Notes under the pieces: generated by a model | Seen by the model: only the letters and a program-made list of their open reading frames with translations | Database searches by the model: none | Told to the model about the DNA's origin: nothing | Part shown: positions 14,051-41,845 of the stretch, one piece after another | Layout: each line of letters starts with the position of its first letter | Position numbering within the stretch: the first letter of the stretch is position 1 | Translations under genes and position numbers: made by a program | Assembly (NCBI RefSeq): GCF_044324875.1 | Contig: NZ_CP172185.1 | From: Escherichia coli | GTDB lineage: Bacteria; Pseudomonadota; Gammaproteobacteria; Enterobacterales; Enterobacteriaceae | DNA: 64,000 nt | Direction: 5' to 3' (one strand)

Positions 14051-14063
14051 AGTGTGCAATAAA

Positions 14064-15076: not shown

Positions 15077-15389
15077 GCGTTTCAGGGGGTAAATAGCATT
15101 CCCTGAACGATGTTGCAGTGACACAACAGAATGGCTGTATTTCTCACGCTGAGCGTGAAAAAGACGTAAGGGCTTTTGATTTGATGGGGTGAAAGATAAG
15201 GCCGTCAAAATCGCACTGAGGCAGCGAGAATATGTCGTCAGAGTTGCGGGGTTGCGTAAGCATCCGCCCGGCGATGATGGCTACAGGGCTGGAGATGTTG
15301 TGAAATTATCTGAAGGAATAACCAGCTTGCAGGAGAACCCGGGCAAAGTCAGAATAGCGGCAGGCATCAACTCAAAAGAGGATAATGTC

Positions 15390-18766: not shown

Positions 18767-18920
18767 TTCTCCCCCTCATGTGATTCAGGCAGTTTACTCA
18801 CCCCTTACAGGCCTCCTGCCATGCCCGGTGTTGTCGGCATTCGCTTACAACAAACGCACTTTGTCTGTCCCTGCCCCGTTTTGCCATCATGAGACAAACG
18901 ATCATCACGAGGGCCCGACA

Positions 18921-25542: not shown

Positions 25543-25889
25543 CCGCTGTTTACAGGGGGATGAACCCGCAGGGAACCGGCACGCTGAGCGACAGCGAACA
25601 CCTGAAAAACAGCGTGCGGGATATCCTGACCACACCGCCAGGCAGCCGGGTGATGCGCCGCGAATACGGCAGCCTGTTACCGGACCTCATCGACGAGCCC
25701 ATGAACGACACCACGCGTTTACAGTGCATGAGCGCCACGGTGACTGCGCTGGCGCGCCATGAACCCCGTATAGCACTGCAGAACGTCGATGTGAACTGGC
25801 GGGCTGGCGGACGCGCCGTGGTGACGTTATCCGGCATCATCACCGAAACCATGCAGAACATCACATTCAGTATCACCCTGAGGGAGTAA
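25539..25889 (+). CDS. W: Baseplate protein, P2 gpW family (116 aa from ATG 25539)
   Basis: Position after V with ATGA overlap. Confidence 0.8.
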   Translation: MTAVYRGMNPQGTGTLSDSEHLKNSVRDILTTPPGSRVMRREYGSLLPDLIDEPMNDTTRLQCMSATVTALARHEPRIALQNVDVNWRAGGRAVVTLSGIITETMQNITFSITLRE

Positions 25890-25892
25890 ATC

Positions 25893-26789: not shown

Positions 26790-27345
26790 CAGGAAAAAAA
26801 CAGACAGCGCACAGCACAGTACATCACTGCTTCCACCGTCCGCAGGGCCATTCATGCGCGCCACAGAGGCGACAGGAGTACGCATCAGTGCCATACCGGT
26901 GGACGCCGACACCCTGTGGTCGCCGGACCGCTGCCCTGCTCACCTCCTGCCCTACCTTGCATGGGCATGTTCCGTTGACAGCTGGGACCGCAACTGGCCG
27001 GAAGAGACCAGGCGACAGGTGATTCGGGACGCATGGATGATACATCGCCACAAAGGGACCATCAGTGCACTCCGCCGCATCGTTGAACCACTGGGCTACC
27101 TCATCCGTGTATCAGAATGGTGGGAGTTTGACGGCTCGCCCGGGACCTTCACCATTGAGATTGGCACACTTGAAACCGGAGTAAGTGAAGAGGTGCATGA
27201 AGAAATGGAGCGTCTGATTGCCGATGCGCGCCCCGTCAGCCGCCACCTCGTGGGGCTTAGTATCATCCAGGAAATACACGGTGCCATTTACGCCGCTGCC
27301 GCAGGTTACGACGGCGACATCATCACCATTTACCCGGAAGACTGA
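26782..27345 (+). CDS. I: Baseplate protein, P2 gpI family (187 aa from ATG 26782)
   Basis: Position between J and the tail fibre gene. Confidence 0.8.
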   Translation: MSDRKKTDSAQHSTSLLPPSAGPFMRATEATGVRISAIPVDADTLWSPDRCPAHLLPYLAWACSVDSWDRNWPEETRRQVIRDAWMIHRHKGTISALRRIVEPLGYLIRVSEWWEFDGSPGTFTIEIGTLETGVSEEVHEEMERLIADARPVSRHLVGLSIIQEIHGAIYAAAAGYDGDIITIYPED

Positions 27346-27348
27346 ACC

Positions 27349-29229
27349 ATGAGCACGAGAAAATTCAGAACCCTTATCACCGACATCGGGCTGGCAAAGC
27401 TGGCCGCAACAACGGCGCCTGGCGGTAGACCTGTACGCCTTACGCACATGGCTGTAGGGGACGGCAATGGAGAGCTTCGTCAGCCGCAGAAAAACCAGAC
27501 ATCGCTTTACAATGAGGTTTGGCGCCAGTCTGTCAACCGCGTCTTCACCGACCCGGAGAACCCGAACCGCCTCATCGCCGAACTGGTCATTCCTCCTGAA
27601 ACCGGCGGATTCTGGGTGCGTGAAATTGGTGTGTTTGATGATACAGGTACAATGATTGCAGTAGGAAATACCGCTGAAAGTTACAAGCCCACCAGAGAGG
27701 AAGGTTCAGGGCGGGCGCAGATATTCCGTGCAGTAATCACCGTCACCTCCGACGCCGTGGTGGAACTGGTCATGGACACAACAACAATTCTGCCGACCAC
27801 GGACTACATTGATGAGAAAATAGCGGAACACGCACGTTCCCGTAACCACCCTGACGCGACACTGACAGAAAAAGGATTCACCCAACTGAGCAGCGATACA
27901 AACAGCAATTCCGAAACGCTGGCGGCCACACCAAGAGCCGTCAAGGCTGCATATGACCTTGCAGCCCGTAAAGCACCCGCCAGCCACACCCACCCGTGGA
28001 ATCAGATAACTGGTGTGCCATCAGCCTCGCTGACGGCAAAAGGCATCGTACAGCTGAGCAGCGATACAAACAGCAATTCCGAAACGCTGGCGGCCACACC
28101 AAGAGCCGTCAAGGCTGCATATGACCTTGCAGCCGGTAAAGCACCCGCCAGCCACACCCACCCGTGGAATCAGATAACAGGTGTGCCATCAGCCTCGCTG
28201 ACGGCAAAAGGCACCGTACAGCTGAGCAGCGCCACAAACAGTGAGTCAGAGACTGAGGCCGCCACCCCCAAAGCGGTTAAAGCCTTACACGATATGCTGA
28301 CGAGCAAGTATACAGGACAGGATGCAACCACCGGACGCAAAGGCATCGTACAGCTGAGCAGCGCCACAAACAGCAATTCCGAAACGCTGGCGGCCACACC
28401 AAGAGCCGTCAAGGCTGCATATGACCTTGCAGCCAGTAAAGCCTCTGCCAGCCACACCCATCCGTGGAATCAGATAACAGGTGTTCCATCAGCCTCGCTG
28501 ACGGCAAAAGGCATCGTACAGCTGAGCAGCGCCACAAACAGCAATTCCGAAACGCTGGCGGCCACACCAAGAGCTGTTAAAGCTGCGTATGACCTTGCCA
28601 ACAGCAAAGCCGCGGCAGCCCACACTCATCGCTGGGCTCAGATCACAGACGCCCCTGTTTTTTCGTCTGTTGCCCGCGTCATCATGGGTAAACAAAGCAT
28701 AAAAGATATTCTTGATTACCTTGGTTTAGGAGAAGGCTCGACGCTGCCAGTTGGCGTACCCGTTCCGTGGCCTTCGTCAAGACCACCTGAAGGGTGGTTA
28801 CAGTGCAATGGTGCCGCATTCACGCGTACAAAATACCCAAAACTGGCAGTGGCCTACCCTGACCTAAGGCTACCAGATTTGCGCGGGGAATTTATTCGTG
28901 GATGGGATGACCTGCGAATGATTGACAGGGGACGCTTATTGTTATCCACACAGGAAGCAACATATATTTGTACCGCCATACAGGCGTACCACGGCGTAGC
29001 GGGAGGTGCAGATATTCAGGCAGGGATTTCATTTGCATCACATGATAACGACATCATAAACATAACCCCTGATCAACCCAGAACCGGTAACGGCATCCTG
29101 TACGGCAGAAAACCAGTTGACAGATGGGCAATAGCCAGAGCCGGTAAGCTGGTGAGTAATGAAAAAGACAGATGGATAGCGATCAGACCGCGCAATATCG
29201 CTTTTAATTATATTGTGAGGGCAGTTTAA
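27349..29229 (+). CDS. H: Tail fibre protein (gpH-like) with internal 56-aa tandem repeats and C-terminal tail-collar-like domain
   Basis: 626 aa; about five repeats of G(I/T)VQLSS(A/D)TNSNSETLAATPRAVKAAYDLA...SHTHPWNQITGVPSASLTAK; position before the fibre assembly gene. Confidence 0.85.
   Translation: MSTRKFRTLITDIGLAKLAATTAPGGRPVRLTHMAVGDGNGELRQPQKNQTSLYNEVWRQSVNRVFTDPENPNRLIAELVIPPETGGFWVREIGVFDDTGTMIAVGNTAESYKPTREEGSGRAQIFRAVITVTSDAVVELVMDTTTILPTTDYIDEKIAEHARSRNHPDATLTEKGFTQLSSDTNSNSETLAATPRAVKAAYDLAARKAPASHTHPWNQITGVPSASLTAKGIVQLSSDTNSNSETLAATPRAVKAAYDLAAGKAPASHTHPWNQITGVPSASLTAKGTVQLSSATNSESETEAATPKAVKALHDMLTSKYTGQDATTGRKGIVQLSSATNSNSETLAATPRAVKAAYDLAASKASASHTHPWNQITGVPSASLTAKGIVQLSSATNSNSETLAATPRAVKAAYDLANSKAAAAHTHRWAQITDAPVFSSVARVIMGKQSIKDILDYLGLGEGSTLPVGVPVPWPSSRPPEGWLQCNGAAFTRTKYPKLAVAYPDLRLPDLRGEFIRGWDDLRMIDRGRLLLSTQEATYICTAIQAYHGVAGGADIQAGISFASHDNDIINITPDQPRTGNGILYGRKPVDRWAIARAGKLVSNEKDRWIAIRPRNIAFNYIVRAV
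27880..28640 (+). repeat. Tandem 168-bp (56-codon) direct repeats inside the tail fibre gene
   Basis: Repeat unit recurs at 28021, 28189, about 28357 and about 28486 at nucleotide level. Confidence 0.8.
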
Positions 29230-29840
29230 TGAGTAACACTGCAGTTCTGGATGAAAACGGTATCGCCACTTTCGCAGGCGATATCACTGTATATCACTAT
29301 GATGAGGAAACCCGGGAATACACCTCATCCTCTGTGGAGTATCTGGCCCTGGGGGTGGGTACCCCGGCACATTCATGCGCCGATGCCCCGCCAGAGGCAA
29401 TGCCGGGTTACGTGATTTGCCGGACGTCCACGCTGGACGGGTGGGAGTATGTCCCCGATCATCGTGGAGAGACGGTATACAGCACAGAGAACGGTAATCC
29501 GGTCCAGATTACCCAACCAGGTGACTACCCGGAAGGGACAACGACAAAACAGCCTGCCACACCATGGGATACCTGGAACGGTGAGGCGTGGGTAACCGAT
29601 ACAGAACGGCAGCAAGCCGAAGAGCTGGAGGTTGCCAGACAGCAACGCCAGGAACGGGTGGATCAGGCGATGAAGTCCATCGACCTCATCAACCTTAAGT
29701 TGCGGGCAGGTCGCAGTCTGACACCAGAAGAAACGGCAAAACTGAATGCCGTGCTGGATTATATCGACGAGCTGAACGCACTGGATATCAGCACGGGGCC
29801 TGAAATAACCTGGCCGGAAACACCACCAGGAATGGAATGA
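29229..29840 (+). CDS. G: Tail fibre assembly chaperone (gpG/Tfa-like)
   Basis: 203 aa directly after the tail fibre gene. Confidence 0.8.
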   Translation: MSNTAVLDENGIATFAGDITVYHYDEETREYTSSSVEYLALGVGTPAHSCADAPPEAMPGYVICRTSTLDGWEYVPDHRGETVYSTENGNPVQITQPGDYPEGTTTKQPATPWDTWNGEAWVTDTERQQAEELEVARQQRQERVDQAMKSIDLINLKLRAGRSLTPEETAKLNAVLDYIDELNALDISTGPEITWPETPPGME

Positions 29841-29883
29841 GCGGGGAAAAGGAACGGGCATTCATAAATAATTCATCATGCAG

Positions 29884-29903
29884 GTGCCGCAAGAATGCGG
29901 CAC
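29884..29903. terminator. Hairpin (gtgccgc-aagaat-gcggcac) between the converging G and U genes
   Basis: 7-bp perfect stem in the 70-bp gap between convergent gene ends. Confidence 0.45.
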
Positions 29904-29910
29904 ATTACCT

Positions 29911-30399
29911 TCACATCAGATCATTTACGCCGCTTACTGTGGTATTCCAGACCGAACTTAACTTCCCTTTCATTCCCGAAAGCATATCAGACACCGGCGA
30001 CGAGGCCATACTCTCCCGCAAATCCTCATCACAGCGTTCCAGACTGACAGTGAACTCAATTTTTTTGGCCTTACCGTGGCGGTCAAGTTCGCTTCGCGTT
30101 GTGCGGACAGCCGTTATCACATACATGCCGTATATCTGCCCCACACCGTCAATCAGCGGCCATGGGCGACCAGTGTAAGCCTGCGTCGTTAAAAGGCTGA
30201 GGGAAACCTCACCGCCGGTAATTTCGGGATAAAGCACACCGGACAACGTGATCTGGTCGTCACCCGCCCCGATATACTGCCAGCTGGCCGAACGATTGAT
30301 GCGTTCATTTTTAACGTGGCGCCAGGTTTTATTATGTTGCAGTTGTTGATGAGGCAGCGTACGCAACTCAAAAACAAACATGCCGTAAATCATCATCAT
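29911..30399 (-). CDS. U: Tail protein, P2 gpU family
   Basis: 162 aa (P2 U about 159 aa); N-terminus MMMIYGMFVFELRTLPHQ... resembles gpU as recalled. Confidence 0.8.
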   Translation of the reverse strand: MMMIYGMFVFELRTLPHQQLQHNKTWRHVKNERINRSASWQYIGAGDDQITLSGVLYPEITGGEVSLSLLTTQAYTGRPWPLIDGVGQIYGMYVITAVRTTRSELDRHGKAKKIEFTVSLERCDEDLRESMASSPVSDMLSGMKGKLSSVWNTTVSGVNDLM

Positions 30400-30410
30400 G
30401 CGAGGTACTC

Positions 30411-33400
30411 CTAATCTCTGTCACGGAAACTACCGACTGTCTGGCGGATACGGCGTTCCATTTCCGCACGGACGGCATCACCCACCATTTTTGCCAGTTC
30501 GCGCGGGTTTTGCGTGTGAACATCATGCAGGTGAATATGCAGTTCGCCAGTTAATCCCCATGGTGCCGGATCACTCTGACGCGGTCGGGGCGATGCGGGG
30601 GATATGGGCTGGCGTACAGCCTCAACCACCGGACGGGATGTTGCCGTTACGACGGGTGTCATTACCGGCGCAATATTGCCGGACACGACCGGTTTAATTA
30701 CCGGGGAGAGCGTCGGTATAACATCGCCAGCCATAACCGGTTTGATCGCTGGCGAAATAACCGGAGCAACAGACTCAGCCATGACGGAACTGACAGGCTG
30801 AGGCGCTCTCACTATGCCAGCATCGATAACCAGCATGAGCTCGCGTACTGCCTCAAGGACAGGACGGGATATTGCCGCCATCACTGGTGTCATTAGCGGG
30901 GAGAACGTCGGCATGACATCGTGAGTCATAACCGGTTTGATCACCGGCGAAACCACTGGCGTAATATTACCGGACAGTACCGGACGGACGACCGGAGGAA
31001 TAACCGGCACATTATTCACGGACACCACCGGCTTCACGACCGGCGACACGTTCGCCGTGGTGGATATCAGCGGCGAAACACTGACAGGCGGTGGCGCTGG
31101 CAGCGGTGGCAACGAAGGCACACTGACCGACGGCACCTGCGGCAGTCTGACAGGTGGCTCACTGACACTACCCGGTAACAGGGAAGCTGCGCGGTTAAAG
31201 CGTTCCTCCTTCCACTCACCACGAACGGCCAGCGCTTCCGGCAGGTTTTTAAAGATAATATCGCCGGGACCAGTGCGTTTTTTCGCCTGTTTCGCCTCAT
31301 CCAGCAGGCCACCGGTGTTATCGACGATTTTATTCAGGCGACGCATGGTGCCGGTATTCTCCCCCGTCAGCGGAGCAGTTGCTGCAGGTGCAGGTACTGG
31401 CGGCTTTTTGTCTTTGTCATTTTGCGGCGGATTAATGACATTAACATCCGCCAGGAGCATGGCGGCTTTCTCGTTCAGCAGCTCCTTCTGCTTCAGCTCT
31501 TCCGCCTTTTTCCGGGCGCGCTCAACCGCCGACGGAATCAGCCCGAGTTTTTCCAGCACCCGGGTTAACGAGTCAACCAGCAGCGTGACCGGACCGGTCA
31601 CCAGATTGCTGATAAACTCCCCGACCTTCTGCCCGAACGTCCGCCCGGCTTCCGTGCACTTGTCCAGCTCATCCTTTGTTGTGCTTACCGGCGCGAACAG
31701 GTCCACGAACCACTGCCACACACGCCCGATTGTCTGCCCGACGTACTCAAATATCGGTCCCAGCGGTGCCACAGCCTCGCGCAGTGGCGTAAGCCCCTGC
31801 CACAGGCCGGACAGATACCCACCCACGACAGCCTTCAGCTGGTCCCAGTGCCGCCAGATAAGCACTGCCGCACCGACCAGTGCCGCCACCACGAGGCCCA
31901 CCGGACTTAACAGAAAACCCAGCGCCCCGCCAAGTGCGCCCACCGCACCACTCACCATTCCCCACAGCGCAGGCAGACCTGACAGTCTGAGCGCCAGCAT
32001 ACCGATACCGCGCCCCAGAGAAAGCAGAGCACCGCCCGGGGAAGTGAACGCAGCCAGCAGACCACCACGCAGCGTACCGAGTAGTCCGCGCACGCCACGA
32101 AGCCGGACCGCAAGCCGTCCCGCACCGGTATCAAGACCGGCAAACAGCACACGCCAGCCGCCAATACCACTCATCGACCCACCGAGTACGCCGCGCAGCT
32201 GCGTCAGTAACGGCAGCGCACGACCGAGGCCGGATGTGCCGGTCAGCAGGGAAAAGCCAAGACGCAGTTTTGCCAGCGGCCCCAGCAACACGCCGGTAGC
32301 CAGTGACAGCGCCCCCGTGGCCGCAACCGCAGCCAGCAGTGCACCACCGGCAATCAGCAGTTGTTTTGTCAGTTCAGGGTGCGCCTGGGCCAGCGCGGTG
32401 ACTTTCGCAATAACCCGGGTGAACGACTGCGTGACAGAACGCAGCGGCCCGTCAACGAGGTCAGCGACACGGATACGCAGCCCTTCCCATGCGCTGTTCA
32501 GTGATTTCAGGTCGCCGTCCAGGTTGTCCGCCATGATTCTGGCGTTTTCTTCCAGTTCGCCGTTCGCTGCCTGAATCTCACGCGTCAGGCGCGGCAGGTT
32601 TTTTTCGCCTGCCTGTTCAACCAGGCTCATCAGGGAGACATACGCCTCCTGCCCGGCAATATCTGAAAAGAACGAGACTTTTGCCGCGTTACCGTATTTA
32701 CGGGTGGCCTGATACAGCTCATACAGGATATCTTCCATCGGGCGCATGTTCCCGTAAGCATCCTGCGTTTCCACGCCCAGCTGTTTCAGCGCCTTTGCTG
32801 CCGCTTTAGGCGGGTTCACAAGGCGGGACAGACTGGAGCGCAGCGCCGTACCAGCATCACTGCCACGTATCCCCATCGACCCAAGCAACCCGGTCATGGC
32901 TGCGGTCTGTTCAAGAGACAGACCGAGTGAGGCGGCGACCGGTCCCGTATATTTCATCGTCTCACCAAGCCCGCGCAGGTCGGTATTGGTGCGGGTGAAC
33001 GTTGCGGCCAGCGTGTCACCCACGCGGTTCATCTGGTCGGCAGACAACCCGAACTGCGTAAGGATATTTGAGCTGATATCGGCCGTCTGACCGAGGTCCA
33101 TGCCGCTGGCCGTTGCCAGATTCAGCACGCCGGGAAGAGCCGCCTGTATCGCCTGCGGCGTGAACCCCGCCATGGCAAGGAACGCCTGACCGCTGGCAGC
33201 ATCACCTGCGGTAAACTGCGTTTCGGAGCCGAGTTTAAGCGCCTGTTCGCGCAGCGCCTTAAACTGCGGACTGTTTTTGTCAATACGGGTCAGCGCCTGG
33301 ACGCGCGACATCTCCTTACCAAAACTGACCGCCGGTTGCAGGAAACGCCCGGCCGCATAGCCACCTGCCGCTGCCGTGCCGACTGCCGTAAATCCACCCG

Positions 33401-33932
33401 CTTTCAGTTTTCCCGCCATCTCCTGAGCGCGGAAATATTGCTGGCGTGCCTGCGTGACGCGTGCCAGAGTCTGCCGTTCACGTTCCAGCTGTTCGTTGTA
33501 TTGCTGTGTTCGCCGTATGGCCTGTTGAATGGTGTTGTCACTGCCGGAAAGCGCAATACCGTGACGCCGCAGCTCACCACCCAGTTCGCGCATTCGCTGA
33601 ACTTCACGCGCACGGACCTCATTGAGACGCTCAAGTTTGAGGCTCAAATCGTTCATCAGCTTTTTCTGTTTGTCAGACAGCACGGTTCCGGCGCGCTGAA
33701 TTTGCTGAAGTGCGCTTAACTGGCGTTGTGCCCGGGCAATGCCGTTTCCGGCCTTGTTTGCAGCCTCGCGGGCGCGATCAAATGAACGGGCGTGGCGTTC
33801 CAGGTTTTTGATCGCACCCTGCGTTCTCTGTATGGAGTCGCCAAGCTGGCCCATCATGCGACGGGCGTTTTCGGTGGGACGGGTCAGCCTGTCAACAGCG
33901 CTGAAGGCGACCCGTATATCAAGCGTTTTCAT
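30411..33932 (-). CDS. T: Tail tape measure protein (gpT-like), 1173 aa from the ATG overlapping the E' stop, with Pro/Val-rich repetitive C-terminus
   Basis: Very long Ala/Gly/Leu-rich ORF following the E/E' chaperone pair; the ORF track start at 33968 is an over-extension. Confidence 0.85.
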   Translation of the reverse strand: MKTLDIRVAFSAVDRLTRPTENARRMMGQLGDSIQRTQGAIKNLERHARSFDRAREAANKAGNGIARAQRQLSALQQIQRAGTVLSDKQKKLMNDLSLKLERLNEVRAREVQRMRELGGELRRHGIALSGSDNTIQQAIRRTQQYNEQLERERQTLARVTQARQQYFRAQEMAGKLKAGGFTAVGTAAAGGYAAGRFLQPAVSFGKEMSRVQALTRIDKNSPQFKALREQALKLGSETQFTAGDAASGQAFLAMAGFTPQAIQAALPGVLNLATASGMDLGQTADISSNILTQFGLSADQMNRVGDTLAATFTRTNTDLRGLGETMKYTGPVAASLGLSLEQTAAMTGLLGSMGIRGSDAGTALRSSLSRLVNPPKAAAKALKQLGVETQDAYGNMRPMEDILYELYQATRKYGNAAKVSFFSDIAGQEAYVSLMSLVEQAGEKNLPRLTREIQAANGELEENARIMADNLDGDLKSLNSAWEGLRIRVADLVDGPLRSVTQSFTRVIAKVTALAQAHPELTKQLLIAGGALLAAVAATGALSLATGVLLGPLAKLRLGFSLLTGTSGLGRALPLLTQLRGVLGGSMSGIGGWRVLFAGLDTGAGRLAVRLRGVRGLLGTLRGGLLAAFTSPGGALLSLGRGIGMLALRLSGLPALWGMVSGAVGALGGALGFLLSPVGLVVAALVGAAVLIWRHWDQLKAVVGGYLSGLWQGLTPLREAVAPLGPIFEYVGQTIGRVWQWFVDLFAPVSTTKDELDKCTEAGRTFGQKVGEFISNLVTGPVTLLVDSLTRVLEKLGLIPSAVERARKKAEELKQKELLNEKAAMLLADVNVINPPQNDKDKKPPVPAPAATAPLTGENTGTMRRLNKIVDNTGGLLDEAKQAKKRTGPGDIIFKNLPEALAVRGEWKEERFNRAASLLPGSVSEPPVRLPQVPSVSVPSLPPLPAPPPVSVSPLISTTANVSPVVKPVVSVNNVPVIPPVVRPVLSGNITPVVSPVIKPVMTHDVMPTFSPLMTPVMAAISRPVLEAVRELMLVIDAGIVRAPQPVSSVMAESVAPVISPAIKPVMAGDVIPTLSPVIKPVVSGNIAPVMTPVVTATSRPVVEAVRQPISPASPRPRQSDPAPWGLTGELHIHLHDVHTQNPRELAKMVGDAVRAEMERRIRQTVGSFRDRD

Positions 33933-34445
33933 GCTCTGCGTTCCCGCTGCGAAGGGCCGCCCGCTCACGCCAGGCGACCACCTCGCCGGGATCCATCAGG
34001 AAGATTTCAGCGGGAGACCAGTTGAAAATAACGGCGATATCCGCCACAAAGTCTTCAATATGCTCAAAGGGCACGACGGTTATCAGCCTGCCGTCGCCGC
34101 CACGCTCTTCCCGCCAGAGTCCTGACCGGCCAAAAAATTAACCGCCACCCCGCACAGCTGAATAAAATCAGCGGACCCCATGCGCTTAAGCATAACCTCG
34201 TCCAGTCGCGGCGAAGTGACGCGCGGGAGTAACTCAAACATCGCGTCCGTTTTCATGTTCAGCACGTCAAGCAGTGACAGCCCGCGCAGTGAACCGGCCT
34301 GCTGTACAGCAGGCGTGATTTCCACATACGTGATTTTTTTGTTACCGAGCACAAGGGGTGTTTTCAGTGTCACGCCGCGCTCACTGGTCACGTCAGCCAC
34401 ATCAGCACCGTCAGTAACAGGGGCAACAACCGGATTTTCTTTCAT
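33919..34445 (-). CDS. Tail assembly chaperone frameshift product E+E' (programmed -1 frameshift at 34131..34137)
   Basis: Manual translation in the -1 frame after T_TTT_TTG gives an extended product ending at TGA 33919..33921, overlapping the tape measure start. Confidence 0.7.
34083..34445 (-). CDS. E: Tail assembly chaperone, P2 gpE family (zero-frame product)
   Basis: 120-aa ORF upstream of the tape measure gene; carries the slippery heptamer near its 3' end. Confidence 0.8.
   Translation of the reverse strand: MKENPVVAPVTDGADVADVTSERGVTLKTPLVLGNKKITYVEITPAVQQAGSLRGLSLLDVLNMKTDAMFELLPRVTSPRLDEVMLKRMGSADFIQLCGVAVNFLAGQDSGGKSVAATAG
34131..34137 (-). promoter_or_regulatory. Programmed -1 ribosomal frameshift heptamer T TTT TTG (E to E')
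   Basis: Heptamer in frame as (AA)T TTT TTG in the last part of E; conserved mechanism in tail chaperone genes. Confidence 0.7.
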
Positions 34446-34494
34446 GAATAAAACCTCAAATCAGGGGCGACGCCACGCGCCGCCGTGGAAAACA

Positions 34495-35013
34495 TTAACC
34501 ACCAAGACCAATCGCCGAGCGCACGCGGTCCGGGAAGACGCTTTTGCCGTCCTTGCGTTCGATGTGGTTCAGTAAATCAATCTCCAGCACCGGACGGTCG
34601 TTAATGCTGAGTTTGTAGTAGGTACTTTTGACCGCATAGGTGTGAGACGTGACCTCACCCTGTTTGGCCTCCCCGGTATCAATTTCCGTCACGCGACCGC
34701 GAAGCTCAATCTCGTACAGGTCACTCTGTTCTTCATCGTTGTAGTACTCACCGACAAAGCGCAGCAGCGTACCGTCAATCGTGCCGCCGTACTTGAGGAA
34801 CAGTTCGCGGGTCGGCCCGCCCATGGTGAAACTCGCATCCAGCGCGCCGTCATCCAGGCCAAGGTCGATATTTACTGCACCGGCCATACCACCACCGCGA
34901 TAGGCTTCCGTTTTACGGGTCAGTTTGGGGGGCGTGAAGCCGGTCACCCTGCCAATCTGGTTCACCCCGTCAGTAAACAGCGTGAACACCCTGAGATTTT
35001 TTGGTACGGCCAT
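34495..35013 (-). CDS. FII: Tail tube protein, P2 gpFII family
   Basis: 172 aa between the sheath and E genes. Confidence 0.8.
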   Translation of the reverse strand: MAVPKNLRVFTLFTDGVNQIGRVTGFTPPKLTRKTEAYRGGGMAGAVNIDLGLDDGALDASFTMGGPTRELFLKYGGTIDGTLLRFVGEYYNDEEQSDLYEIELRGRVTEIDTGEAKQGEVTSHTYAVKSTYYKLSINDRPVLEIDLLNHIERKDGKSVFPDRVRSAIGLGG

Positions 35014-36296
35014 TAAGCACCTCCAAGCGTCGCAAATGCAGGACCAAAGAATTCATCAGTAAACGTCTGGTAAAGTTCCATATCCTCAAGCGGCGGAACG
35101 GGCGTGTACTTGTAGCGGATACGCACGCGTCCCTGACGAAGTTCCGTGGTGCTGTTATCCACCACGTCATACCAGCACTCCGCACCAACGAGACGTCCTG
35201 ACGTAACCAGCGCATCCAGTTTTGCGCGAATTGCGCTTAACACGTCTTTCACATTAGCAGGGGTCAGCGGGGCATCAATCGTTTCAAACTGCGCTTCCGC
35301 AACAGAATCAGCCAGCACCTGAGCGGTTCGCGTGTACACCTCAAAGATATACGCCTTCGTTTCCGGCGTACGGTTGCCCCAGAAGCGGAAACCGTTACGG
35401 CGAATGATGGTGGTGATTTCCTTGTTGTTGAGATTGTTGGCATCGCTGTCTTCGGACTGAAGGGACCAGAACACCCGGCTGGAAATACCCAGCACATTTC
35501 TTACCGGCACGTTGGACAGCGATTTATGCCAGCCCTGTTCGTGGTCAATACGTGCACGTAAACCGCAGGCGTACGCCGCAGCCGGGAAGACCTCATTAGC
35601 GCCGGATTTCGGGTTATAGGCGATGAAGTCAGGCCAGAGCAGCATAAGTTCGCGCTCGTTAAATCTGGCGCGGTAGCTGATTGCATCAGCGGGCTTCTTG
35701 CAGTTGTGACAGCCCGCGTAGACAAATGCGCGAAGTTTTTCTGCAATTACACACAGGGATTTTGTGACAGCTTCAGTATCCAGTCCGGGAGCTGCGATGA
35801 TGCGCGGACGGTAACCGATGGCATCATCCTGTTCAGCTATCAGAAGTGCATACATACCGGTATAATTACCGTCGCCATCCGTGCCACCAATGACATACTG
35901 GTCCTGCGTTTTGTGTGGGTATACAGGATGTGCATCTTCAGACTCATCAATACCAAAAAATGCCCTGTCTTCAGGATCCAGATGACCGAATGATGTAACT
36001 CCTGTATCCGGGGCGCCCTGAGAACTGGCATCAGGAACGCGCACCACAATCACCTTCGTGCTCACCTGGTCGGCGACAGCCTTAAGCGATTTGTAAAGCG
36101 TCCCCTTTGTGCCGGCCTTACCCAGCACATCACTGACGCGGGTCAGCAGTGTGGGTTTGTTCAGCGGGAACAGAGTTTCATCCGCGTCATCTGCCGTAGC
36201 CACAATACCAATAACACTGGAATCCACATCATTAATGGCGGTGGCAAGGCCGGTACTTTCCCTTACGCGCGCACCATGAAAGCGTGTTTCACTCAT
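35013..36296 (-). CDS. FI: Tail sheath protein, P2 gpFI family (427 aa from ATG 36296)
   Basis: Motifs collinear with P2 FI as recalled (LNKP, KGTLY, EQGWHK, GFRFWGNRT, NYTRTAQV, YTPVPPLE); the ORF track start at 36443 is an over-extension. Confidence 0.88.
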   Translation of the reverse strand: MSETRFHGARVRESTGLATAINDVDSSVIGIVATADDADETLFPLNKPTLLTRVSDVLGKAGTKGTLYKSLKAVADQVSTKVIVVRVPDASSQGAPDTGVTSFGHLDPEDRAFFGIDESEDAHPVYPHKTQDQYVIGGTDGDGNYTGMYALLIAEQDDAIGYRPRIIAAPGLDTEAVTKSLCVIAEKLRAFVYAGCHNCKKPADAISYRARFNERELMLLWPDFIAYNPKSGANEVFPAAAYACGLRARIDHEQGWHKSLSNVPVRNVLGISSRVFWSLQSEDSDANNLNNKEITTIIRRNGFRFWGNRTPETKAYIFEVYTRTAQVLADSVAEAQFETIDAPLTPANVKDVLSAIRAKLDALVTSGRLVGAECWYDVVDNSTTELRQGRVRIRYKYTPVPPLEDMELYQTFTDEFFGPAFATLGGA

Positions 36297-36369
36297 ATGT
36301 TTCACCCTTGTCTGGCTGGTTGATTTTGCGTAATCATTACCCACACACGCGGTAATCTCACCCCTTTGA

Positions 36370-36393
36370 TGTTGTCTCCTGACAGCGACAACA
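36370..36393. promoter_or_regulatory. Perfect dyad TGTTGTC-N10-GACAACA containing TGT-N12-ACA, candidate Ogr-dependent late promoter element shared by divergent FI and D
   Basis: Read directly; fits the TGT-N12-ACA dyad characteristic of P2 late promoters; lies in the 160-bp FI/D divergent region. Confidence 0.5.
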
Positions 36394-36457
36394 AAACAGC
36401 CATTCAACGCCGCTACGGTGCATGAAACCATTACAGAACGCACCAGGAGAGAACACC

Positions 36458-37549
36458 ATGAAAGAGCTGTCAGTTACCGTTCCGTCACCGGATATCGACA
36501 TCACCATCAACAACAACACACTGGCAAACCTCACAGAGCGACTCATGACGCTGACCCTGACGGATAACCGGGCCTTTGAGGCAGACCGCGTCACCCTCAC
36601 CCTTGACGATACGGACGGGCAGTTACAGTTGCCACCACGTGGCGCACGCCTGAGAGTGATGATTGGCTGGCGCGGGGAGGCGCTGGTTAACAAGGGTGTC
36701 TACATCGTTGATGAAGTGACGTGGGAAGGCCCGCCGGACAAACTGACCATCACCGCCAGCAGCGCCGATTTTCGCGAAGAGTTCAACGTGAAGCGTGAAG
36801 TCTCCTGGCACGACGTGACGGTAAAACAGGTTGTGTCAGCCATCGCGCACCGCTACGGCCTGAAAGCACAGATAAGCGATATCCTCATGGATATCGAAAT
36901 TGACCACGCAGACCAGACCGAAGAGAGTGATATATCCTTCCTGACCCGCATGGCTGAAATGCTGGGTGCGATTGCCACCGTAAAAAACGGCAGCCTGTTA
37001 TTCATTCTGCCGGGTGGCGGAACCGGGCCGGACGGAAAAGCCCTGCCTTCGTTCGCCATTACCCGCAGCAGCGGCGACAGTCACCGCTTTCGCATTGCTG
37101 ACCGTGATGCGTATACGGGGGTCCGGGCGCACTGGCTCGATCTGAAGTTCGGGCAAAAGAAAAAAGTGAACGTGAAGCGACGCAGGGAAGCCGGGAAACA
37201 GAAACAGGAGAAGAGCAGCAGCCGGGAAGGTGATTACATGGAAGGCGCGGAAGGTAACGTCTACGTTCTGCGCAGGACTTACCAGAATGAAGAAACCGCA
37301 CGACGTGCAGCAGCTGCAAAGTGGCAGGAACTACAGCGGGGCGCGGCATCATTCTCCATCACGCTGGCGCGCGGTCGTGCCGACCTGTACCCTGAAATGC
37401 ACGGCAGGGTAACAGGTTTTAAAAGCGAGGTGGACAATCAGGACTGGATTATTGCCAGGGTGGAGCACAGCATAGATGAAAGCGGCTTCACCACACAACT
37501 GGAGCTGGAAGCGAAAATCCCCGAATGGATAGCAGATTCAGGCGGATAA
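36458..37549 (+). CDS. D: Tail protein D (gpD-like), 363 aa from ATG 36458
   Basis: Size and position before ogr as P2 D; AGGAGA ribosome binding site upstream of ATG 36458. Confidence 0.8.
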   Translation: MKELSVTVPSPDIDITINNNTLANLTERLMTLTLTDNRAFEADRVTLTLDDTDGQLQLPPRGARLRVMIGWRGEALVNKGVYIVDEVTWEGPPDKLTITASSADFREEFNVKREVSWHDVTVKQVVSAIAHRYGLKAQISDILMDIEIDHADQTEESDISFLTRMAEMLGAIATVKNGSLLFILPGGGTGPDGKALPSFAITRSSGDSHRFRIADRDAYTGVRAHWLDLKFGQKKKVNVKRRREAGKQKQEKSSSREGDYMEGAEGNVYVLRRTYQNEETARRAAAAKWQELQRGAASFSITLARGRADLYPEMHGRVTGFKSEVDNQDWIIARVEHSIDESGFTTQLELEAKIPEWIADSGG

Positions 37550-37592
37550 AATTAAAATGAGCCATCTCCACTCAGCCAGATAAGGAGAAGCC

Positions 37593-37844
37593 ATGTTCCG
37601 TTGTCCCCTGTGCGGTGCATCCGCACGTATCCGCACCAGTCGCAATGAAAATGATTCAGGCACAGTTCGCCTGAAGTACTACCAGTGCAATAACCTCGAA
37701 TGCGGGATCGGCTTTACCACACTGGAGGGTTTTAACAAATTCACATCAAAACGCGCCCCGTCGCCGCAGGGTACAGAGCGGATACCGTGGGAAGATTTTC
37801 CGGGATCTCACAGGGGGAATGCTCAGATGAATCTTGATATTTAA
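37593..37844 (+). CDS. ogr: Zinc-finger late gene activator, Ogr/Delta family
   Basis: 83 aa with CPLC...C-x4-C zinc-finger spacing and N-terminus MFRCPLCG resembling P2 Ogr (MFHCPLC...). Confidence 0.88.
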   Translation: MFRCPLCGASARIRTSRNENDSGTVRLKYYQCNNLECGIGFTTLEGFNKFTSKRAPSPQGTERIPWEDFPGSHRGNAQMNLDI

Positions 37845-37962
37845 GAACAATAATCAGGTTGAGAGGACATCATAAGGCAAGTAGATTAACGGCAGATACT
37901 TTCCCGCAACCACGGGCAAGTATTTAATTATCCATGATGAAATATGACCTAAATTGTTTTTT

Positions 37963-37988
37963 GCCCGCCGGAAAGCGGGCATTTTTTT
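37963..37988 (+). terminator. Intrinsic terminator 1 of the ogr-attR array (gcccgc-cggaaa-gcgggc plus T8)
   Basis: Hairpin and T-run read directly. Confidence 0.75.
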
Positions 37989-38202
37989 ATTCTTTTGTGG
38001 TTATGGGGTCATCAGGAACCACGTGCAGATTATATTTTTGTTTTTTTGGCGTTCCTCCGGCAGCAACGAGTTCATCAATAAGACACTGACACGCCTGAAC
38101 ATCCCGGGCATGTCTTAGTTTCACCTTTATTGATTTAACCTTATCCTCACCGGAGGAGAAATGCAGTTCAATCTCAATATCGTTTCTTCGGAACAATCTC
38201 AT
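37987..38202 (-). CDS. Hypothetical small protein (71 aa) between ogr and attR
   Basis: ORF on the minus strand; no recognisable motif. Confidence 0.4.
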   Translation of the reverse strand: MRLFRRNDIEIELHFSSGEDKVKSIKVKLRHARDVQACQCLIDELVAAGGTPKKQKYNLHVVPDDPITTKE

Positions 38203-38429
38203 ACGCCCCCCTGAATATATCAGAAATGCTAGTATCGAAAAATGAGAAAACAGTTAGACAGGAGAAACATATTAACACAAATCATTTATACCTATAGATG
38301 AAATTATAATTTCATTCATGAATATGATAGATAACTATATTGTGAACAAAATGAAAAATGGCTAAATTAAAAATGGGCATGGAGGAATGCCTCGTAATCA
38401 GTAATACATGATCCATACTTCCTTGTTTT

Positions 38430-38455
38430 GCCCGCCGGAAAGCGGGCATTTTTTT
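38430..38455 (+). terminator. Intrinsic terminator 2 of the array (identical hairpin gcccgc-cggaaa-gcgggc plus T8)
   Basis: Identical stem-loop to terminator 1. Confidence 0.75.
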
Positions 38456-38631
38456 GGCGGTTACCATCGCCTCACCTTCCTGGTTCACACAAAGCAACCC
38501 TGATTTTCCATGAAAACTTCAGGGTTGAGCCAAAAGCACAAAGACAGTAGATTAACCAAGGGTACCCGCCACCTGCCAACAGGAACGGTATCCAGTACGT
38601 ATTAATGACTGACAATTCACATTGCTGTTTT

Positions 38632-38657
38632 GCCCGCCAGAAGGTGGGCATTTTTTT
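38632..38657 (+). terminator. Intrinsic terminator 3 of the array
   Basis: gcccgcc-agaa-ggtgggc hairpin plus T7. Confidence 0.7.
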
Positions 38658-38834
38658 GGCAGTTATCATGGACGCACCTTCATGACACATATTAAGCAGA
38701 CCTGATTTTTCCATGAAAAATTCATGGTTGAGACAAAAGCACAAAAACAGTAGATTAACCACGGGTGCCTGCCACCTGACAACAGGAAGGGGTGTCCATT
38801 ATCCATGATATACAAACGAAAAGTCTTGTCTTTT

Positions 38835-38861
38835 GCCCGCCGTTGCGCGGGCTTTTTTTTT
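38835..38861 (+). terminator. Intrinsic terminator 4 of the array
   Basis: gcccgc-cgttgc-gcgggc hairpin plus T9. Confidence 0.7.
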
Positions 38862-38890
38862 GCCACCCTCACCAGTGAGGGTACCATCAT

Positions 38891-39178
38891 TCAGAGGCGC
38901 GTAAGCCACCCGGCGTTAACATCCTGCCCGTCAACCCTGACCGCAGAGTCTGAACGGCAGGCACCGGAAGCAGTACCAAAAACACCTCTGACAAGTTCCG
39001 CCACCTTCCCGATATCATCAGGCGCCACATTCCTCACCTCGACAGTGATCCGTGGCGTACCATCATCGTTAACAAGCGTGGCTTTAAGGCTGGTACGACG
39101 GGCAAATAACATCAACACCCCCTCCCTTCGGTTCGTTGCACTGGCAGCACGATACCACCAGGAAAAAGAAAAGCCCAC
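38891..39178 (-). CDS. Hypothetical protein (up to 95 aa) adjacent to attR
   Basis: ORF on minus strand; several possible starts; no motif recognised. Confidence 0.35.
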   Translation of the reverse strand: MGFSFSWWYRAASATNRREGVLMLFARRTSLKATLVNDDGTPRITVEVRNVAPDDIGKVAELVRGVFGTASGACRSDSAVRVDGQDVNAGWLTRL

Positions 39179-39203
39179 AACGTCAGGATTGCGGGCTTTT
39201 TTT
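39172..39203 (+). terminator. Intrinsic terminator 5, last phage element before the copA promoter
   Basis: gcccacaa...ttgcgggc hairpin followed by ttttttt. Confidence 0.6.
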
Positions 39204-39268
39204 CTTCAAAAATGGACACTACGTGGACACTGATTAAATAATCCTTTCTTAATCAGACTGTTAAAATG

Positions 39269-39288
39269 CTTGACCTTCCCCTTGCTGG
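39269..39288. repeat. attR core (direct repeat copy 2)
   Basis: Identical to 4256..4275. Confidence 0.8.
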
Positions 39289-39340: not shown

Positions 39341-41845
39341 ATGTCACAAACTATCGACCTGACCCTGGACGGCCTGTCCTGCGGTCACTGCGTTAAACGC
39401 GTGAAAGAAAGTCTCGAACAGCGCCCGGATGTTGAGCAGGCGGATGTGTCTGTCACTGAAGCGCACGTTACCGGGACTGCCAGTGCAGAACAGCTGATCG
39501 AAACCATCAAACAAGCGGGTTATGACGCATCTGTAAGCCACCCAAAGGCTAAACCGCTGGCGGAGTCATCAATCCCGTCGGAAGCACTGACAGCGGTTTC
39601 TGAGGCGCTTCCGGCAGCGACCGCCGATGACGATGACAGCCAGCAGTTGCTGCTGAGCGGCATGAGCTGCGCCAGCTGTGTCACCCGCGTACAAAATGCG
39701 TTGCAAAGCGTACCGGGCGTCACTCAGGCACGGGTAAACCTGGCGGAGCGTACTGCGCTGGTGATGGGCAGTGCCTCCCCACAAGATTTAGTGCAGGCGG
39801 TGGAAAAAGCGGGCTACGGCGCGGAAGCGATTGAAGATGACGCTAAACGCCGCGAGCGCCAGCAGGAAACCGCCGTCGCTACGATGAAGCGCTTCCGCTG
39901 GCAGGCAATTGTCGCACTGGCGGTGGGTATCCCGGTGATGGTCTGGGGGATGATCGGCGATAACATGATGGTCACCGCTGACAACCGCAGCTTGTGGTTA
40001 GTTATCGGCCTGATAACCCTGGCAGTGATGGTTTTCGCCGGCGGCCATTTTTACCGTAGTGCATGGAAAAGCCTGCTGAACGGTGCAGCGACGATGGATA
40101 CGCTGGTGGCGCTGGGTACTGGCGTGGCGTGGCTCTATTCGATGAGCGTCAACCTGTGGCCGCAGTGGTTCCCGATGGAAGCGCGACATCTTTATTACGA
40201 AGCCAGCGCGATGATTATCGGTCTGATCAATCTCGGTCATATGCTGGAAGCGCGCGCACGTCAGCGTTCTTCAAAGGCGCTGGAGAAATTACTCGATTTA
40301 ACCCCACCGACGGCGCGCCTGGTCACCGACGAAGGTGAAAAAAGCGTGCCGCTGGCGGAAGTGCAGCCAGGTATGTTGCTGCGCCTGACGACCGGCGATC
40401 GCGTGCCGGTAGATGGCGAGATTACCCAGGGCGAAGCATGGCTGGATGAAGCGATGCTGACGGGCGAACCAATCCCGCAGCAAAAAGGCGAAGGCGATAG
40501 CGTCCATGCCGGGACAGTGGTACAGGACGGCAGTGTGCTGTTTCGTGCCAGTGCGGTCGGCAGCCATACTACGCTGTCACGAATCATTCGCATGGTGCGC
40601 CAGGCCCAGAGCAGCAAGCCTGAAATCGGCCAACTGGCGGATAAAATCTCCGCTGTGTTTGTGCCGGTGGTGGTAGTCATTGCGCTGATCAGTGCGGCAA
40701 TCTGGTATTTCTTTGGTCCGGCACCGCAGATTGTCTATACCCTGGTGATTGCCACCACGGTGCTGATTATCGCCTGTCCGTGTGCGCTGGGACTGGCGAC
40801 GCCGATGTCGATTATTTCGGGCGTCGGGCGGGCGGCTGAGTTTGGTGTGCTGGTGCGGGACGCCGACGCGCTGCAACGCGCCAGTACGCTCGACACCGTG
40901 GTGTTCGATAAAACCGGGACGCTGACCGAAGGGAAGCCGCAGGTTGTCGCAGTAAAAACATTTGCTGATGTTGATGAAGCGCAAGCATTGCGTCTGGCGG
41001 CGGCGCTGGAGCAAGGTTCCAGCCACCCGCTGGCACGGGCGATCCTCGATAAAGCAGGTGATATGCAGCTACCGCAGGTCAACGGTTTCCGCACATTGCG
41101 CGGGCTGGGTGTGAGCGGTGAAGCTGAAGGTCATGCGGTATTGCTGGGCAATCAGGCGCTGTTAAATGACCAGCAAGTTGATACTAAAGCGATTGAGGCA
41201 GATATTTCAGCTCAGGCATCGCAAGGTGCAACGCCTGTGCTGCTGGCGGTTGACGGGAAAGCGGTAGCCCTGCTGGCTGTACGCGATCCGTTGCGTAGTG
41301 ATAGCGTGGCGGCGCTGCAACGCCTGCATAAAGCGGGATATCGTCTGGTGATGTTGACCGGGGATAACCCAACCACCGCCAATGCGATCGCCAAAGAAGC
41401 AGGGATTGATGAGGTGATAGCCGGCGTGCTGCCGGACGGTAAAGCCGAAGCGATCAAACGTCTTCAAAGTGAAGGACGTCAGGTGGCAATGGTGGGCGAC
41501 GGCATTAACGATGCGCCAGCGCTGGCTCAGGCGGATGTCGGTATTGCGATGGGTGGCGGCAGTGATGTTGCCATTGAAACCGCGGCGATTACCCTGATGC
41601 GCCATAGCCTGATGGGTGTTGCAGATGCGCTCGCGATTTCCCGCGCAACGCTGCGCAATATGAAGCAGAACCTGCTCGGTGCGTTTATCTACAACAGCAT
41701 TGGTATTCCGGTCGCCGCCGGTATTTTGTGGCCGTTCACTGGAACACTGCTTAACCCGGTGGTTGCCGGAGCGGCAATGGCGCTCTCGTCGATTACCGTA
41801 GTGAGTAACGCCAACCGGTTACTGCGGTTTAAACCGAAAGAGTGA
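39341..41845 (+). CDS. copA: Copper-exporting P-type ATPase
   Basis: 834 aa; two N-terminal GxxCxxC metal-binding motifs, CPC, DKTGT and GDGINDAP motifs. Confidence 0.97.

What the first reader, a model, noticed from the sequence alone, without database searches (positions are those of the whole stretch)
29841..36457. Tail sheath-tube-chaperone-tape measure-U block lies on the opposite strand to the canonical P2 order
In P2, FI-FII-E-T-U-D form one operon co-oriented with H and G. Here FI, FII, E/E', T and U are on the minus strand between G (plus) and D (plus), so D is divergent from FI rather than downstream of U. Every other block keeps the P2 order and orientation. Either a 6.5-kb inversion occurred (requiring D to have its own late promoter) or this is a distinct lineage layout; it could also be an assembly artefact.
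Basis: partly seen in the sequence, partly recalled or inferred. Interest (0 to 1): 0.5.

Follow-up and report, generated by a model that had tools for sequence, protein, structure and literature searches.

The report
Inverted tail-gene block, normal for lineage
The flipped sheath-to-gpU tail gene block is real, but it is the standard, already-sequenced layout of a whole branch of P2-family phages (P88 and relatives), so it is ordinary rather than a new rearrangement or an assembly error.

Summary
In an E. coli P2-family prophage (about 4256-39288), U, T, E/E', FII and FI lie on the minus strand between G (+) and D (+), and the rest keeps P2 order. The layout is not special to this sequence.

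- The same arrangement is annotated in reference phages of five Peduoviridae genera: P88, phiT5282H, 3LV2017, SEN4/5 and ST16-OXA48phi5.4.
- It holds in all 47 phage records closest by both D and FI, and in 80 of 80 IMG/VR relatives.
- The 8.7-kb stretch across both junctions aligns as one collinear piece (two in one listed genome) at 98-99% identity in the listed complete E. coli genomes; 27 hold it at 95% or more. This rules out an artefact or a recent strain-specific flip.
- More distant relatives (P2, Fels-2 and others) keep the canonical order.

Mechanism (inferred): the 161-bp FI-D spacer holds one perfect Ogr-type box, TGTTGT-N12-ACAACA. It is identical in half-sites to the box in the P/O spacer. 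Its centre lies about 85 bp from the FI start codon and 76 bp from the D start codon. This matches the single shared box that P2 itself uses for its divergent pP/pO promoters. So D most likely has its own late promoter. Interest is low.

The parts
29229..29840 (+). gpG-like tail fibre assembly protein. It is the last gene of the plus-strand baseplate and fibre run.
   Evidence: phrog_105, 1.6e-87. Annotated 'tail fiber assembly protein' in the 99%-identical E. coli TUM9803 prophage.
29884..29903 (.). GC-rich hairpin GTGCCGCA-AGAA-TGCGGCAC in the 70-bp convergent G/U gap (29841-29910). It is a likely bidirectional transcript end, but no clean T-run follows the stem.
   Evidence: Fold: 8-bp stem; minus-strand z-score -2.45, plus-strand -1.39. 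The strict terminator scan did not call it.
29911..30399 (-). gpU-like tail protein, the last gene of the inverted operon.
   Evidence: phrog_76, 3.4e-71. Same position and strand in P88, phiT5282H, 3LV2017 and SEN5.
30411..33932 (-). gpT tape measure protein, 1173 aa from the ATG at 33932.
   Evidence: phrog_28, 4.7e-191. 57% identical to P88 gpT (935 aa), with two insertions. The start was deduced.
33919..34445 (-). gpE (34083-34445) and the gpE+E' frameshift product. The slippery TTTTTTG is at about 34131-34137, and the E' frame stops at 33919, overlapping the T start.
   Evidence: phrog_103, 1.8e-31. Frame analysis. PGAP annotates the E' piece as 'GpE family phage tail protein' at the homologous place. 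The P2 record annotates the same -1 frameshift.
34495..35013 (-). gpFII tail tube protein.
   Evidence: TIGR01611, 3.8e-34, above the curated cut-off. phrog_55.
35013..36296 (-). gpFI tail sheath protein, 427 aa, the first gene of the inverted operon.
   Evidence: phrog_23, 8.3e-120. 78% identical to the P88-group sheath. PGAP calls the same 1284-nt CDS.
36297..36457 (.). 161-bp divergent FI/D control region.
   Evidence: Sequence. Alignment of 68 distinct homologous spacers.
36370..36393 (.). Ogr/Delta-type activator box TGTTGT-N12-ACAACA, centred 85.5 bp from the FI ATG and 76.5 bp from the D ATG. It is the predicted shared -55 site for divergent late promoters. Predicted transcription starts are near 36326 (-) and 36437 (+).
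   Evidence: It is one of only two perfect copies in the 64 kb; the other is in the P/O gap. It is conserved in position across relatives. Its half-site variant matches the P/O box of the same genome in 6 of 6 genomes. The P2 record annotates one shared activator site for pO and pP, with starts 55-56 bp either side.
36458..37549 (+). gpD-like tail/baseplate hub protein (late control D family), 363 aa.
   Evidence: phrog_52, 2.2e-153. 79% identical to P88-group D and 48% to P2 D.
37593..37844 (+). Ogr/Delta zinc-finger late activator.
   Evidence: PF04606, 7.8e-14. Annotated 'Ogr/Delta-like zinc finger protein' in TUM9803.
37962..37988 (+). Intrinsic terminator-like hairpin plus T-run downstream of ogr.
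   Evidence: 7-bp stem with 6 GC pairs, followed by TTTTTTT.
18829..18852 (.). Comparator: the identical TGTTGT-N12-ACAACA box in the P/O divergent gap of the same prophage.

Best explanation
The window holds an E. coli prophage of the P2 family (Peduoviridae). It belongs to the branch that includes phage P88 (Xuanwuvirus) and the neighbouring genera Novemvirus, Reginaelenavirus, Senquatrovirus and Reipivirus. In this whole branch the FI-FII-E/E'-T-U segment is inverted relative to P2, while D and ogr keep their orientation. So the classical F operon is split into two divergent late units: FI to U on one strand, and D on the other (ogr probably keeps its own promoter).

Shown here: the layout is real, it is inherited across the clade, it is present in independently assembled complete genomes, and it occurs in phages reported to be inducible or spontaneously active.

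Inferred here: both units are switched on by the phage's Ogr protein acting at a single dyad-symmetric box (TGTTGT-N12-ACAACA, 36370-36393) in the middle of the 161-bp spacer. That box would sit about 55 bp upstream of each of the two divergent start sites. This copies the arrangement that P2 itself uses for its divergent pP and pO promoters.

The inversion was most likely a single old event. One breakpoint lay just upstream of the pF activator box and the other at the U/D boundary, which placed the palindromic box next to D.
For: Layout in reference genomes:
- P88, phiT5282H, 3LV2017, SEN5, Shae_phiSM, KSP20, 520873, ST16-OXA48phi5.4 and P884B11 all have FI and D adjacent and divergent. The four fetched with long flanks also show G/fibre (+) converging on U (-).
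- All 47 phage records that appear in both top-60 tblastn lists have FI and D adjacent and divergent (D at 59% identity or more, FI at 52% or more).
- Every more distant record checked is co-oriented: P2, Fels-2, and SEN8, SW9, BIS20, RSY1, ON170151 and Mannheimia 535AP1.
- 80 of 80 IMG/VR relatives are divergent and adjacent.

This genome:
- The 8.7-kb stretch across both junctions is held at 95% identity or more and 80% coverage or more in 27 complete E. coli genomes. The eight listed are 98.0-99.0% identical over 100% of the query, seven as a single piece.
- PGAP annotation of one of them agrees on strands and gene lengths.

Viability: P88 is inducible and lytic (PMC5285337). PhiSM is spontaneously active (PMC6456863). 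Serratia PP4 particles were seen by electron microscopy (PMC9826266).

Promoter:
- The 12-specified-base palindrome occurs exactly twice in the 64 kb, in the P/O and FI/D gaps.
- It is conserved in position across 68 distinct spacers.
- The left half-site variant in the FI/D box equals that of the P/O box of the same genome in 6 of 6 genomes.
- P2's GenBank record annotates one activator site shared by pO and pP, with starts 55-56 bp either side, and pF with a box about 57 bp upstream of its start.
- An Ogr/Delta gene is present.
- The TGT-N12-ACA consensus and the four P2 late operons are as summarised in PMC3931495.
Against: - No transcription data were available. The start sites and -10 elements are predictions. 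The generic sigma-70 scan finds nothing in the spacer, which is expected for activator-dependent promoters but is not positive evidence.
- The bare TGT-N12-ACA motif is not rare: 12 copies in the window, about what chance gives. Only the extended palindrome, its placement and its covariation carry weight.
- A single origin for the inversion rests on identity ranking, not on a formal tree.
- None of the papers I could search comments on the inversion. 'Known' therefore means recorded in annotated reference genomes rather than explicitly discussed.
Confidence: 0.85

Rival explanations
1. A recent inversion specific to this strain, for example by recombination between inverted repeats or by a Cin/Gin-type invertase.
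For: P88 and Fels-2 carry a DNA invertase at the G-proximal edge of the block, so an invertase has lived next to this junction in relatives.
Against: The same layout is found in five genera, 47 of 47 close phage records, 80 of 80 IMG/VR loci and 27 E. coli genomes. No inverted-repeat pair has arms at the two junctions. The G/U gap is only 70 bp, which leaves no room for an invertase gene.
Confidence: 0.01
2. An assembly artefact: a mis-oriented contig or a collapsed repeat.
For: None beyond the departure from P2.
Against: Closed E. coli chromosomes carry the block and both junctions at 98-99% identity, seven of the eight listed as a single collinear piece. Independently sequenced phage genomes from induced particles share the layout. 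There are no repeats at the junctions. A conserved regulatory box sits in the FI/D spacer.
Confidence: 0.01
3. The layout is lineage-typical, but the box in the spacer serves only the FI operon (it is simply the old pF box). D would be expressed from a different, Ogr-independent promoter or at a low constitutive level.
For: The box is what an inverted pF would carry along anyway, so its presence does not by itself prove use by D. No start-site data exist.
Against: - The box centre lies 68.5-76.5 bp from the D ATG in the six genomes where it was measured. This leaves a 5' leader of about 15-25 nt if the start is at +55, as for P2 pF.
- A conserved GCGC(A/G)CATG(A/C)(A/G)ACCAT element lies on the D side at the -10 position. 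It resembles P2 pF's CTGAAAATACC.
- P2 already uses one box for two divergent promoters.
- D is an essential structural protein needed at the same time as the other tail proteins (established P2 biology).
Confidence: 0.12
4. Not an in-place inversion. An ancestor replaced its sheath-to-U module with a homologous module from another phage, inserted in the opposite orientation (mosaic exchange).
For: P2-family phages are mosaic, and other P2-like phages show rearranged tail operons (Smp131, PMC3931495). The N-terminal 20 or so residues of D differ even within the clade, which suggests that this junction has been remodelled.
Against: FI and the non-inverted neighbour D show similar divergence from P2 (44% and 48% identity). 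They show the same sharp identity gap between inverted and canonical genomes, as expected if they share one history. The outcome for gene expression is the same either way.
Confidence: 0.1

Closest known systems
Escherichia phage P88 and other Xuanwuvirus members (P884B11, 500465-2, 520873, Citrobacter Shae_phiSM / PhiSM)
   Same: Identical gene order and orientation: G (+), then U-T-E'-E-FII-FI on the minus strand, then D (+) and ogr (+). The FI/D spacer is 157 bp and holds an activator box at the homologous position. D is 79% identical and FI 78%.
   Different: DNA identity is only about 75%, over 41% of the 8.6-kb query. P88 carries an invertible fibre segment and a DNA invertase between G and U, where the window has a bare 70-bp gap. 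P88's box has the TCT half-site variant. The window's tape measure is 1173 aa against 935 aa.
Enterobacter phage phiT5282H (Novemvirus), Klebsiella phages 3LV2017 (Reginaelenavirus) and ST16-OXA48phi5.4 (Reipivirus), Salmonella phages SEN4/SEN5 (Senquatrovirus), Serratia phage KSP20
   Same: The same inverted block and the same FI/D divergent spacer, 151-157 bp, with a box at the same place.
   Different: They are more distant (D 61-74%, FI 52-67% identical), have different hosts and carry different fibre and cargo genes.
Bacteriophage P2 (and Fels-2, 186-like and other canonical Peduoviridae)
   Same: The same gene set, the E/E' frameshift, the Ogr activator, TGT-N12-ACA boxes, and a single shared box for the divergent P and O promoters.
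   Different: In P2, FI-FII-E-E'-T-U-D form one operon from pF, co-oriented with H and G. P2 also has a separate pV with a terminator and orf30 between S and V, whereas here S overlaps V.

Membership tests
Peduoviridae (P2-family temperate myophages) | P2-type structural gene set in P2 order (Q, P | O, N, M ... V, W, J, I, H, G; FI, FII, E, T, U, D) | tested here: met
   PHROG, NCBIfam and Pfam matches. All are present. Only the orientation of FI to U differs.
Peduoviridae (P2-family temperate myophages) | Programmed -1 frameshift giving gpE and gpE+E' upstream of the tape measure gene | tested here: met
   TTTTTTG site and an open -1 frame that ends over the T start. The P2 record annotates the same feature. 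Frameshifting itself was not assayed.
Peduoviridae (P2-family temperate myophages) | Ogr/Delta zinc-finger late activator and TGT-N12-ACA boxes upstream of late operons | tested here: met
   PF04606, 7.8e-14. Perfect extended boxes in the P/O and FI/D gaps only. Binding and activation are not testable with these tools.
P88-like lineage with inverted FI-U block (Xuanwuvirus and sister genera) | FI and D adjacent and divergent; G (or the fibre module) convergent with U | tested here: met
P88-like lineage with inverted FI-U block (Xuanwuvirus and sister genera) | D and FI proteins cluster with the lineage rather than with canonical P2-like phages | tested here: met
   D is 59-79% and FI 52-78% identical to lineage members, against at most 53% and 46% to canonical genomes. 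No formal tree was built.
Genus Xuanwuvirus specifically | Genus-level nucleotide similarity over the genome (ICTV practice of about 70% over the full length; from my own knowledge) | tested here: inconclusive
   Only the 8.6-kb tail region was compared. It gave 75% identity over 41% of the query to P88. The whole genome was not compared, so I do not assign a genus.
Site-specific invertible segment (Cin/Gin/Hin type) | Flanking inverted crossover sites and an adjacent serine invertase gene | tested here: not met
   No inverted repeats at the two junctions. There is a 70-bp G/U gap and a 161-bp FI/D gap, and no invertase ORF.

The most novel reading that the evidence does not exclude
A whole branch of Peduoviridae has a rewired late transcription programme that nobody seems to have described. 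The F operon is split by inversion, and a second bidirectional Ogr-dependent promoter pair (pFI/pD) is built on a single palindromic box, as at pP/pO. The S-V boundary has also lost P2's terminator, orf30 and pV spacer. Three P2 plus-strand late operons (O, V, F) would thus become one long plus-strand run plus a divergent pair. The palindromic activator site would be what made the inversion tolerable in a single step.
Probability: 0.5. Interest if true: 0.25.

Novelty: already known. Interest (0 to 1): 0.1.

Why it matters
It matters mainly as a caution. P2 itself is not representative of gene orientation across its family, so departures from P2 should be checked against the roughly 500 sequenced relatives before being called rearrangements or artefacts.

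There is also a small positive point. The FI/D spacer looks like a second natural example of one dyad-symmetric Ogr box driving two divergent late promoters. This is easy to test and would help when annotating promoters in P88-like prophages, which are common in E. coli, Klebsiella, Enterobacter, Salmonella, Citrobacter and Serratia.

Tried and rejected
- Inverted repeats flanking the block: none with arms at both junctions, so no sign of a recent or site-specific flip.
- Tandem repeats in the block and in the long tape measure gene: none.
- Generic sigma-70 scan of the FI/D spacer: no hit. This is uninformative for activator-dependent promoters.
- Bare TGT-N12-ACA as evidence: rejected as too frequent (12 exact copies and 253 one-mismatch copies in 64 kb). 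Only the extended palindrome, its placement and its covariation were used.
- A separate pV box upstream of V: none within one mismatch in 185 bp, and S overlaps V. The exact box at 24017 lies inside the R-like ORF and is probably chance.
- My initial recollection that Burkholderia phiE52237-type and Ralstonia RSA1-type phages have the inverted block: wrong. The Burkholderia records (compared across closely related records) and Ralstonia RSY1 have FI and D co-oriented.
- Literature searches for an explicit description of the inversion in the P88, SEN4/5, PhiSM, Serratia PP4 and global P2-virus papers: nothing found.
- tRNA scan for the integration site: none. The prophage is not at a tRNA gene.
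- PADLOC, PHROG and NCBIfam searches on cargo ORFs near both prophage ends: nothing convincing.
Full report
**1. What is there**

The window is an E. coli chromosome segment. The host flank copA-ushA is 99% identical to E. coli genomes. It carries a P2-family prophage between glsA (3133-4065) and copA (39341-41845). The prophage is bounded by a 20-bp direct repeat at 4256-4275 and 39269-39288.

ORF listing and family searches give the following order:
- int (-) and A (+);
- Q and P (-);
- O, N, M ... V, J, H (27349-29229) and G (29229-29840), all (+);
- then, on the minus strand, U (29911-30399), T (30411-33932), E (34083-34445, with E' to 33919), FII (34495-35013) and FI (35013-36296);
- then D (36458-37549, +) and ogr (37593-37844, +; PF04606, 7.8e-14).

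The E/E' slippery site TTTTTTG and the -1 frame that ends over the T start are intact.

The only refinements are the FI start (ATG at 36296) and the T start (ATG at 33932). PGAP annotation of a 99%-identical prophage in E. coli TUM9803 gives the same genes, strands and lengths.

**2. Is the layout unusual?**

It is not.
- Phage P88 (NC_026014, Xuanwuvirus) has exactly this arrangement.
- So do phiT5282H (Novemvirus), 3LV2017 (Reginaelenavirus), SEN5 (Senquatrovirus), ST16-OXA48phi5.4 (Reipivirus), Citrobacter Shae_phiSM, Serratia KSP20, 520873 and P884B11.
- I ran tblastn of D and of FI against 50,697 phage records and compared positions and strands. All 47 records present in both top-60 lists have FI and D adjacent and divergent. 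These have D at 59% identity or more and FI at 52% or more.
- All more distant records that could be cross-checked are co-oriented as in P2: P2 itself, Fels-2, and SEN8, SW9, BIS20, RSY1, ON170151 and Mannheimia 535AP1.
- A scan of IMG/VR with D found 221 relatives. In the 80 fetched, 80 of 80 have FI adjacent and divergent. Three of them are about 97% identical to the window.
- The 8.7-kb stretch 29200-37900 spans both junctions. It is held at 95% identity or more and 80% coverage or more in 27 complete E. coli genomes. The eight listed are 98.0-99.0% identical over 100% of the query, seven of them as a single collinear piece.

This excludes an assembly artefact and a strain-specific event. 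The clean identity gap between inverted and canonical genomes suggests one old inversion inherited by a clade, but I did not build a tree.

No inverted repeats sit at the junctions, and there is no invertase gene in the 70-bp G/U gap.

Phages with this layout are viable. P88 is inducible and lyses many E. coli strains (PMC5285337; summarised in PMC6456863). PhiSM is spontaneously active. Serratia PP4 particles were seen by electron microscopy (PMC9826266).

**3. How D is probably expressed**

In P2, pF drives FI-FII-E-E'-T-U-D, with an activator site about 57 bp upstream of the start (operons and the TGT-N12-ACA consensus as in PMC3931495).

In the window, the 161-bp FI/D spacer contains a perfect TGTTGT-N12-ACAACA at 36370-36393. 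Its centre lies 85.5 bp from the FI ATG and 76.5 bp from the D ATG.

This 12-specified-base palindrome occurs exactly twice in the 64 kb. The other copy (18829-18852) is in the P/O divergent spacer. The bare TGT-N12-ACA motif is as frequent as chance predicts and carries no weight on its own.

Three further observations support function.
- (a) The box is at the homologous position in all 68 distinct spacers aligned. The ACAA of the right half-site and the T.T of the left half-site are invariant.
- (b) In six of six genomes where I could read both spacers, the left half-site variant of the FI/D box equals that of the P/O box of the same genome:

| Genome | P/O box | FI/D box |
|---|---|---|
| window | TTGT | TTGT |
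| P88 | TTCT | TTCT |
| 3LV2017 | GGTTGTG | GGTTGTG |
| SEN5 | TTGTC | TTGTC |
| phiT5282H | GGTCTGGCC | GGTCTGGCC |
| ST16-OXA48phi5.4 | GGTCTGGCC | GGTCTGCCC |

This is what is expected if one phage-specific activator reads both boxes.
- (c) The P2 GenBank record itself annotates a single 'activator binding site; pO, pP promoters', with the P and O starts 56 and 55 bp on either side. One dyad box serving two divergent late promoters is therefore established P2 architecture.

On the D side a conserved element, GCGC(A/G)CATG(A/C)(A/G)ACCAT, lies where a -10 would be. It resembles P2 pF's CTGAAAATACC. On the FI side a conserved (T/G)AATGAT-like element lies at the mirror position.

The predicted starts are therefore near 36326 (-) and 36437 (+). 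All of this is inference from sequence; no transcript data were available.

The 43-bp D-ogr spacer contains two overlapping TAAAAT hexamers. So ogr may keep a promoter of its own, as in P2, but this is weakly supported.

The G/U gap holds a stable hairpin (29884-29903) that may end both convergent transcripts. It lacks a clean T-run and was not called by the terminator scan.

**4. Comparison with the known**

It works like P2 late gene control. By every feature I could test it is a member of Peduoviridae, and of the P88-like branch with the inverted block.

I do not assign it to the genus Xuanwuvirus. Only the tail region was compared at the DNA level, giving 75% identity over 41% of the query.

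It is not an invertible segment of the Cin/Gin type: there are no crossover repeats and no invertase. Fels-2 has an invertase immediately upstream of FI, and P88 has one next to U. So the flipped segment is exactly what lies between the fibre/invertase module and D. Whether an invertase ever catalysed the flip is pure speculation.

**5. Verdict**

The stated refutation criterion, reference genomes with the same orientation, is met many times over.

Novelty: already known, in the sense of being recorded in annotated reference genomes and in RefSeq E. coli genomes, although the papers I could search do not comment on it.

The one mildly new point is the inferred bidirectional Ogr-dependent pFI/pD promoter pair. 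Interest is low.

Noticed in passing
window 4256-4275 and 39269-39288: A 20-bp direct repeat, CTTGACCTTCCCCTTGCTGG, brackets the prophage. It puts the integration site in the glsA-copA intergenic region of E. coli, not at a tRNA gene (no tRNA was found in the window).
   Followed up: partly
window 37962-37988 and 38429-38455: The same 27-nt terminator-like hairpin plus T-run, TGCCCGCCGGAAAGCGGGCATTTTTTT, occurs twice, 467 bp apart, in the cargo region between ogr and the right prophage end. The reason is unknown. It could be a duplicated transcript end or the footprint of an inserted cassette.
   Followed up: no
window 30411-33932 (-): The tape measure protein is 1173 aa, against 935 aa in P88 and 815 aa in P2. 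It has insertions in the middle and near residues 913-1097, with no tandem repeats. It would predict a noticeably longer tail. In the 99%-identical E. coli TUM9803 prophage, PGAP flags this gene as an incomplete pseudogene.
   Followed up: partly
window 15111-15128 and ORF 15189-15893 (+): An exact TGTTG-N8-CAACA (TGT-N12-ACA) box sits about 70 bp upstream of a 234-aa ORF of unknown function (phrog_5091). The ORF lies in the accessory-gene region between the replication gene A and portal gene Q. It may be an Ogr-dependent late accessory gene, or the box may be chance.
   Followed up: partly
window 24323-24964 / 24961-25542: The S-like gene overlaps the V-like gene. P2's terminator, orf30 and pV spacer are missing, and no activator box lies within one mismatch upstream of V. 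In this lineage the head/lysis (O) and baseplate (V) operons may be fused or use a degenerate internal promoter. P88 shows the same overlap.
   Followed up: partly
window 29841-29910 compared with L001 (P88) 25416-27564: P88 has an invertible alternative fibre segment and a DNA invertase between G and U. The window has only a 70-bp gap with a hairpin. This junction corresponds to a cargo insertion spot in relatives.
   Followed up: partly
window 12746-14460 and 37850-39270: Small accessory ORFs lie at both variable regions of the prophage. Between A and Q there are phrog_14984, phrog_11214 (with a weak CARF/CasR-like PADLOC hit, 1.5e-5) and an HTH regulator on the minus strand. Between ogr and the right end there are ORFs with no family match. 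No defence system was recognised.
   Followed up: partly
window 36458-36520 compared with relatives: The first 20 or so residues of D are not homologous between the window and P88-type phages, although the rest is 79% identical. The N-terminus of D and the adjoining spacer seem to be a remodelled junction.
   Followed up: no
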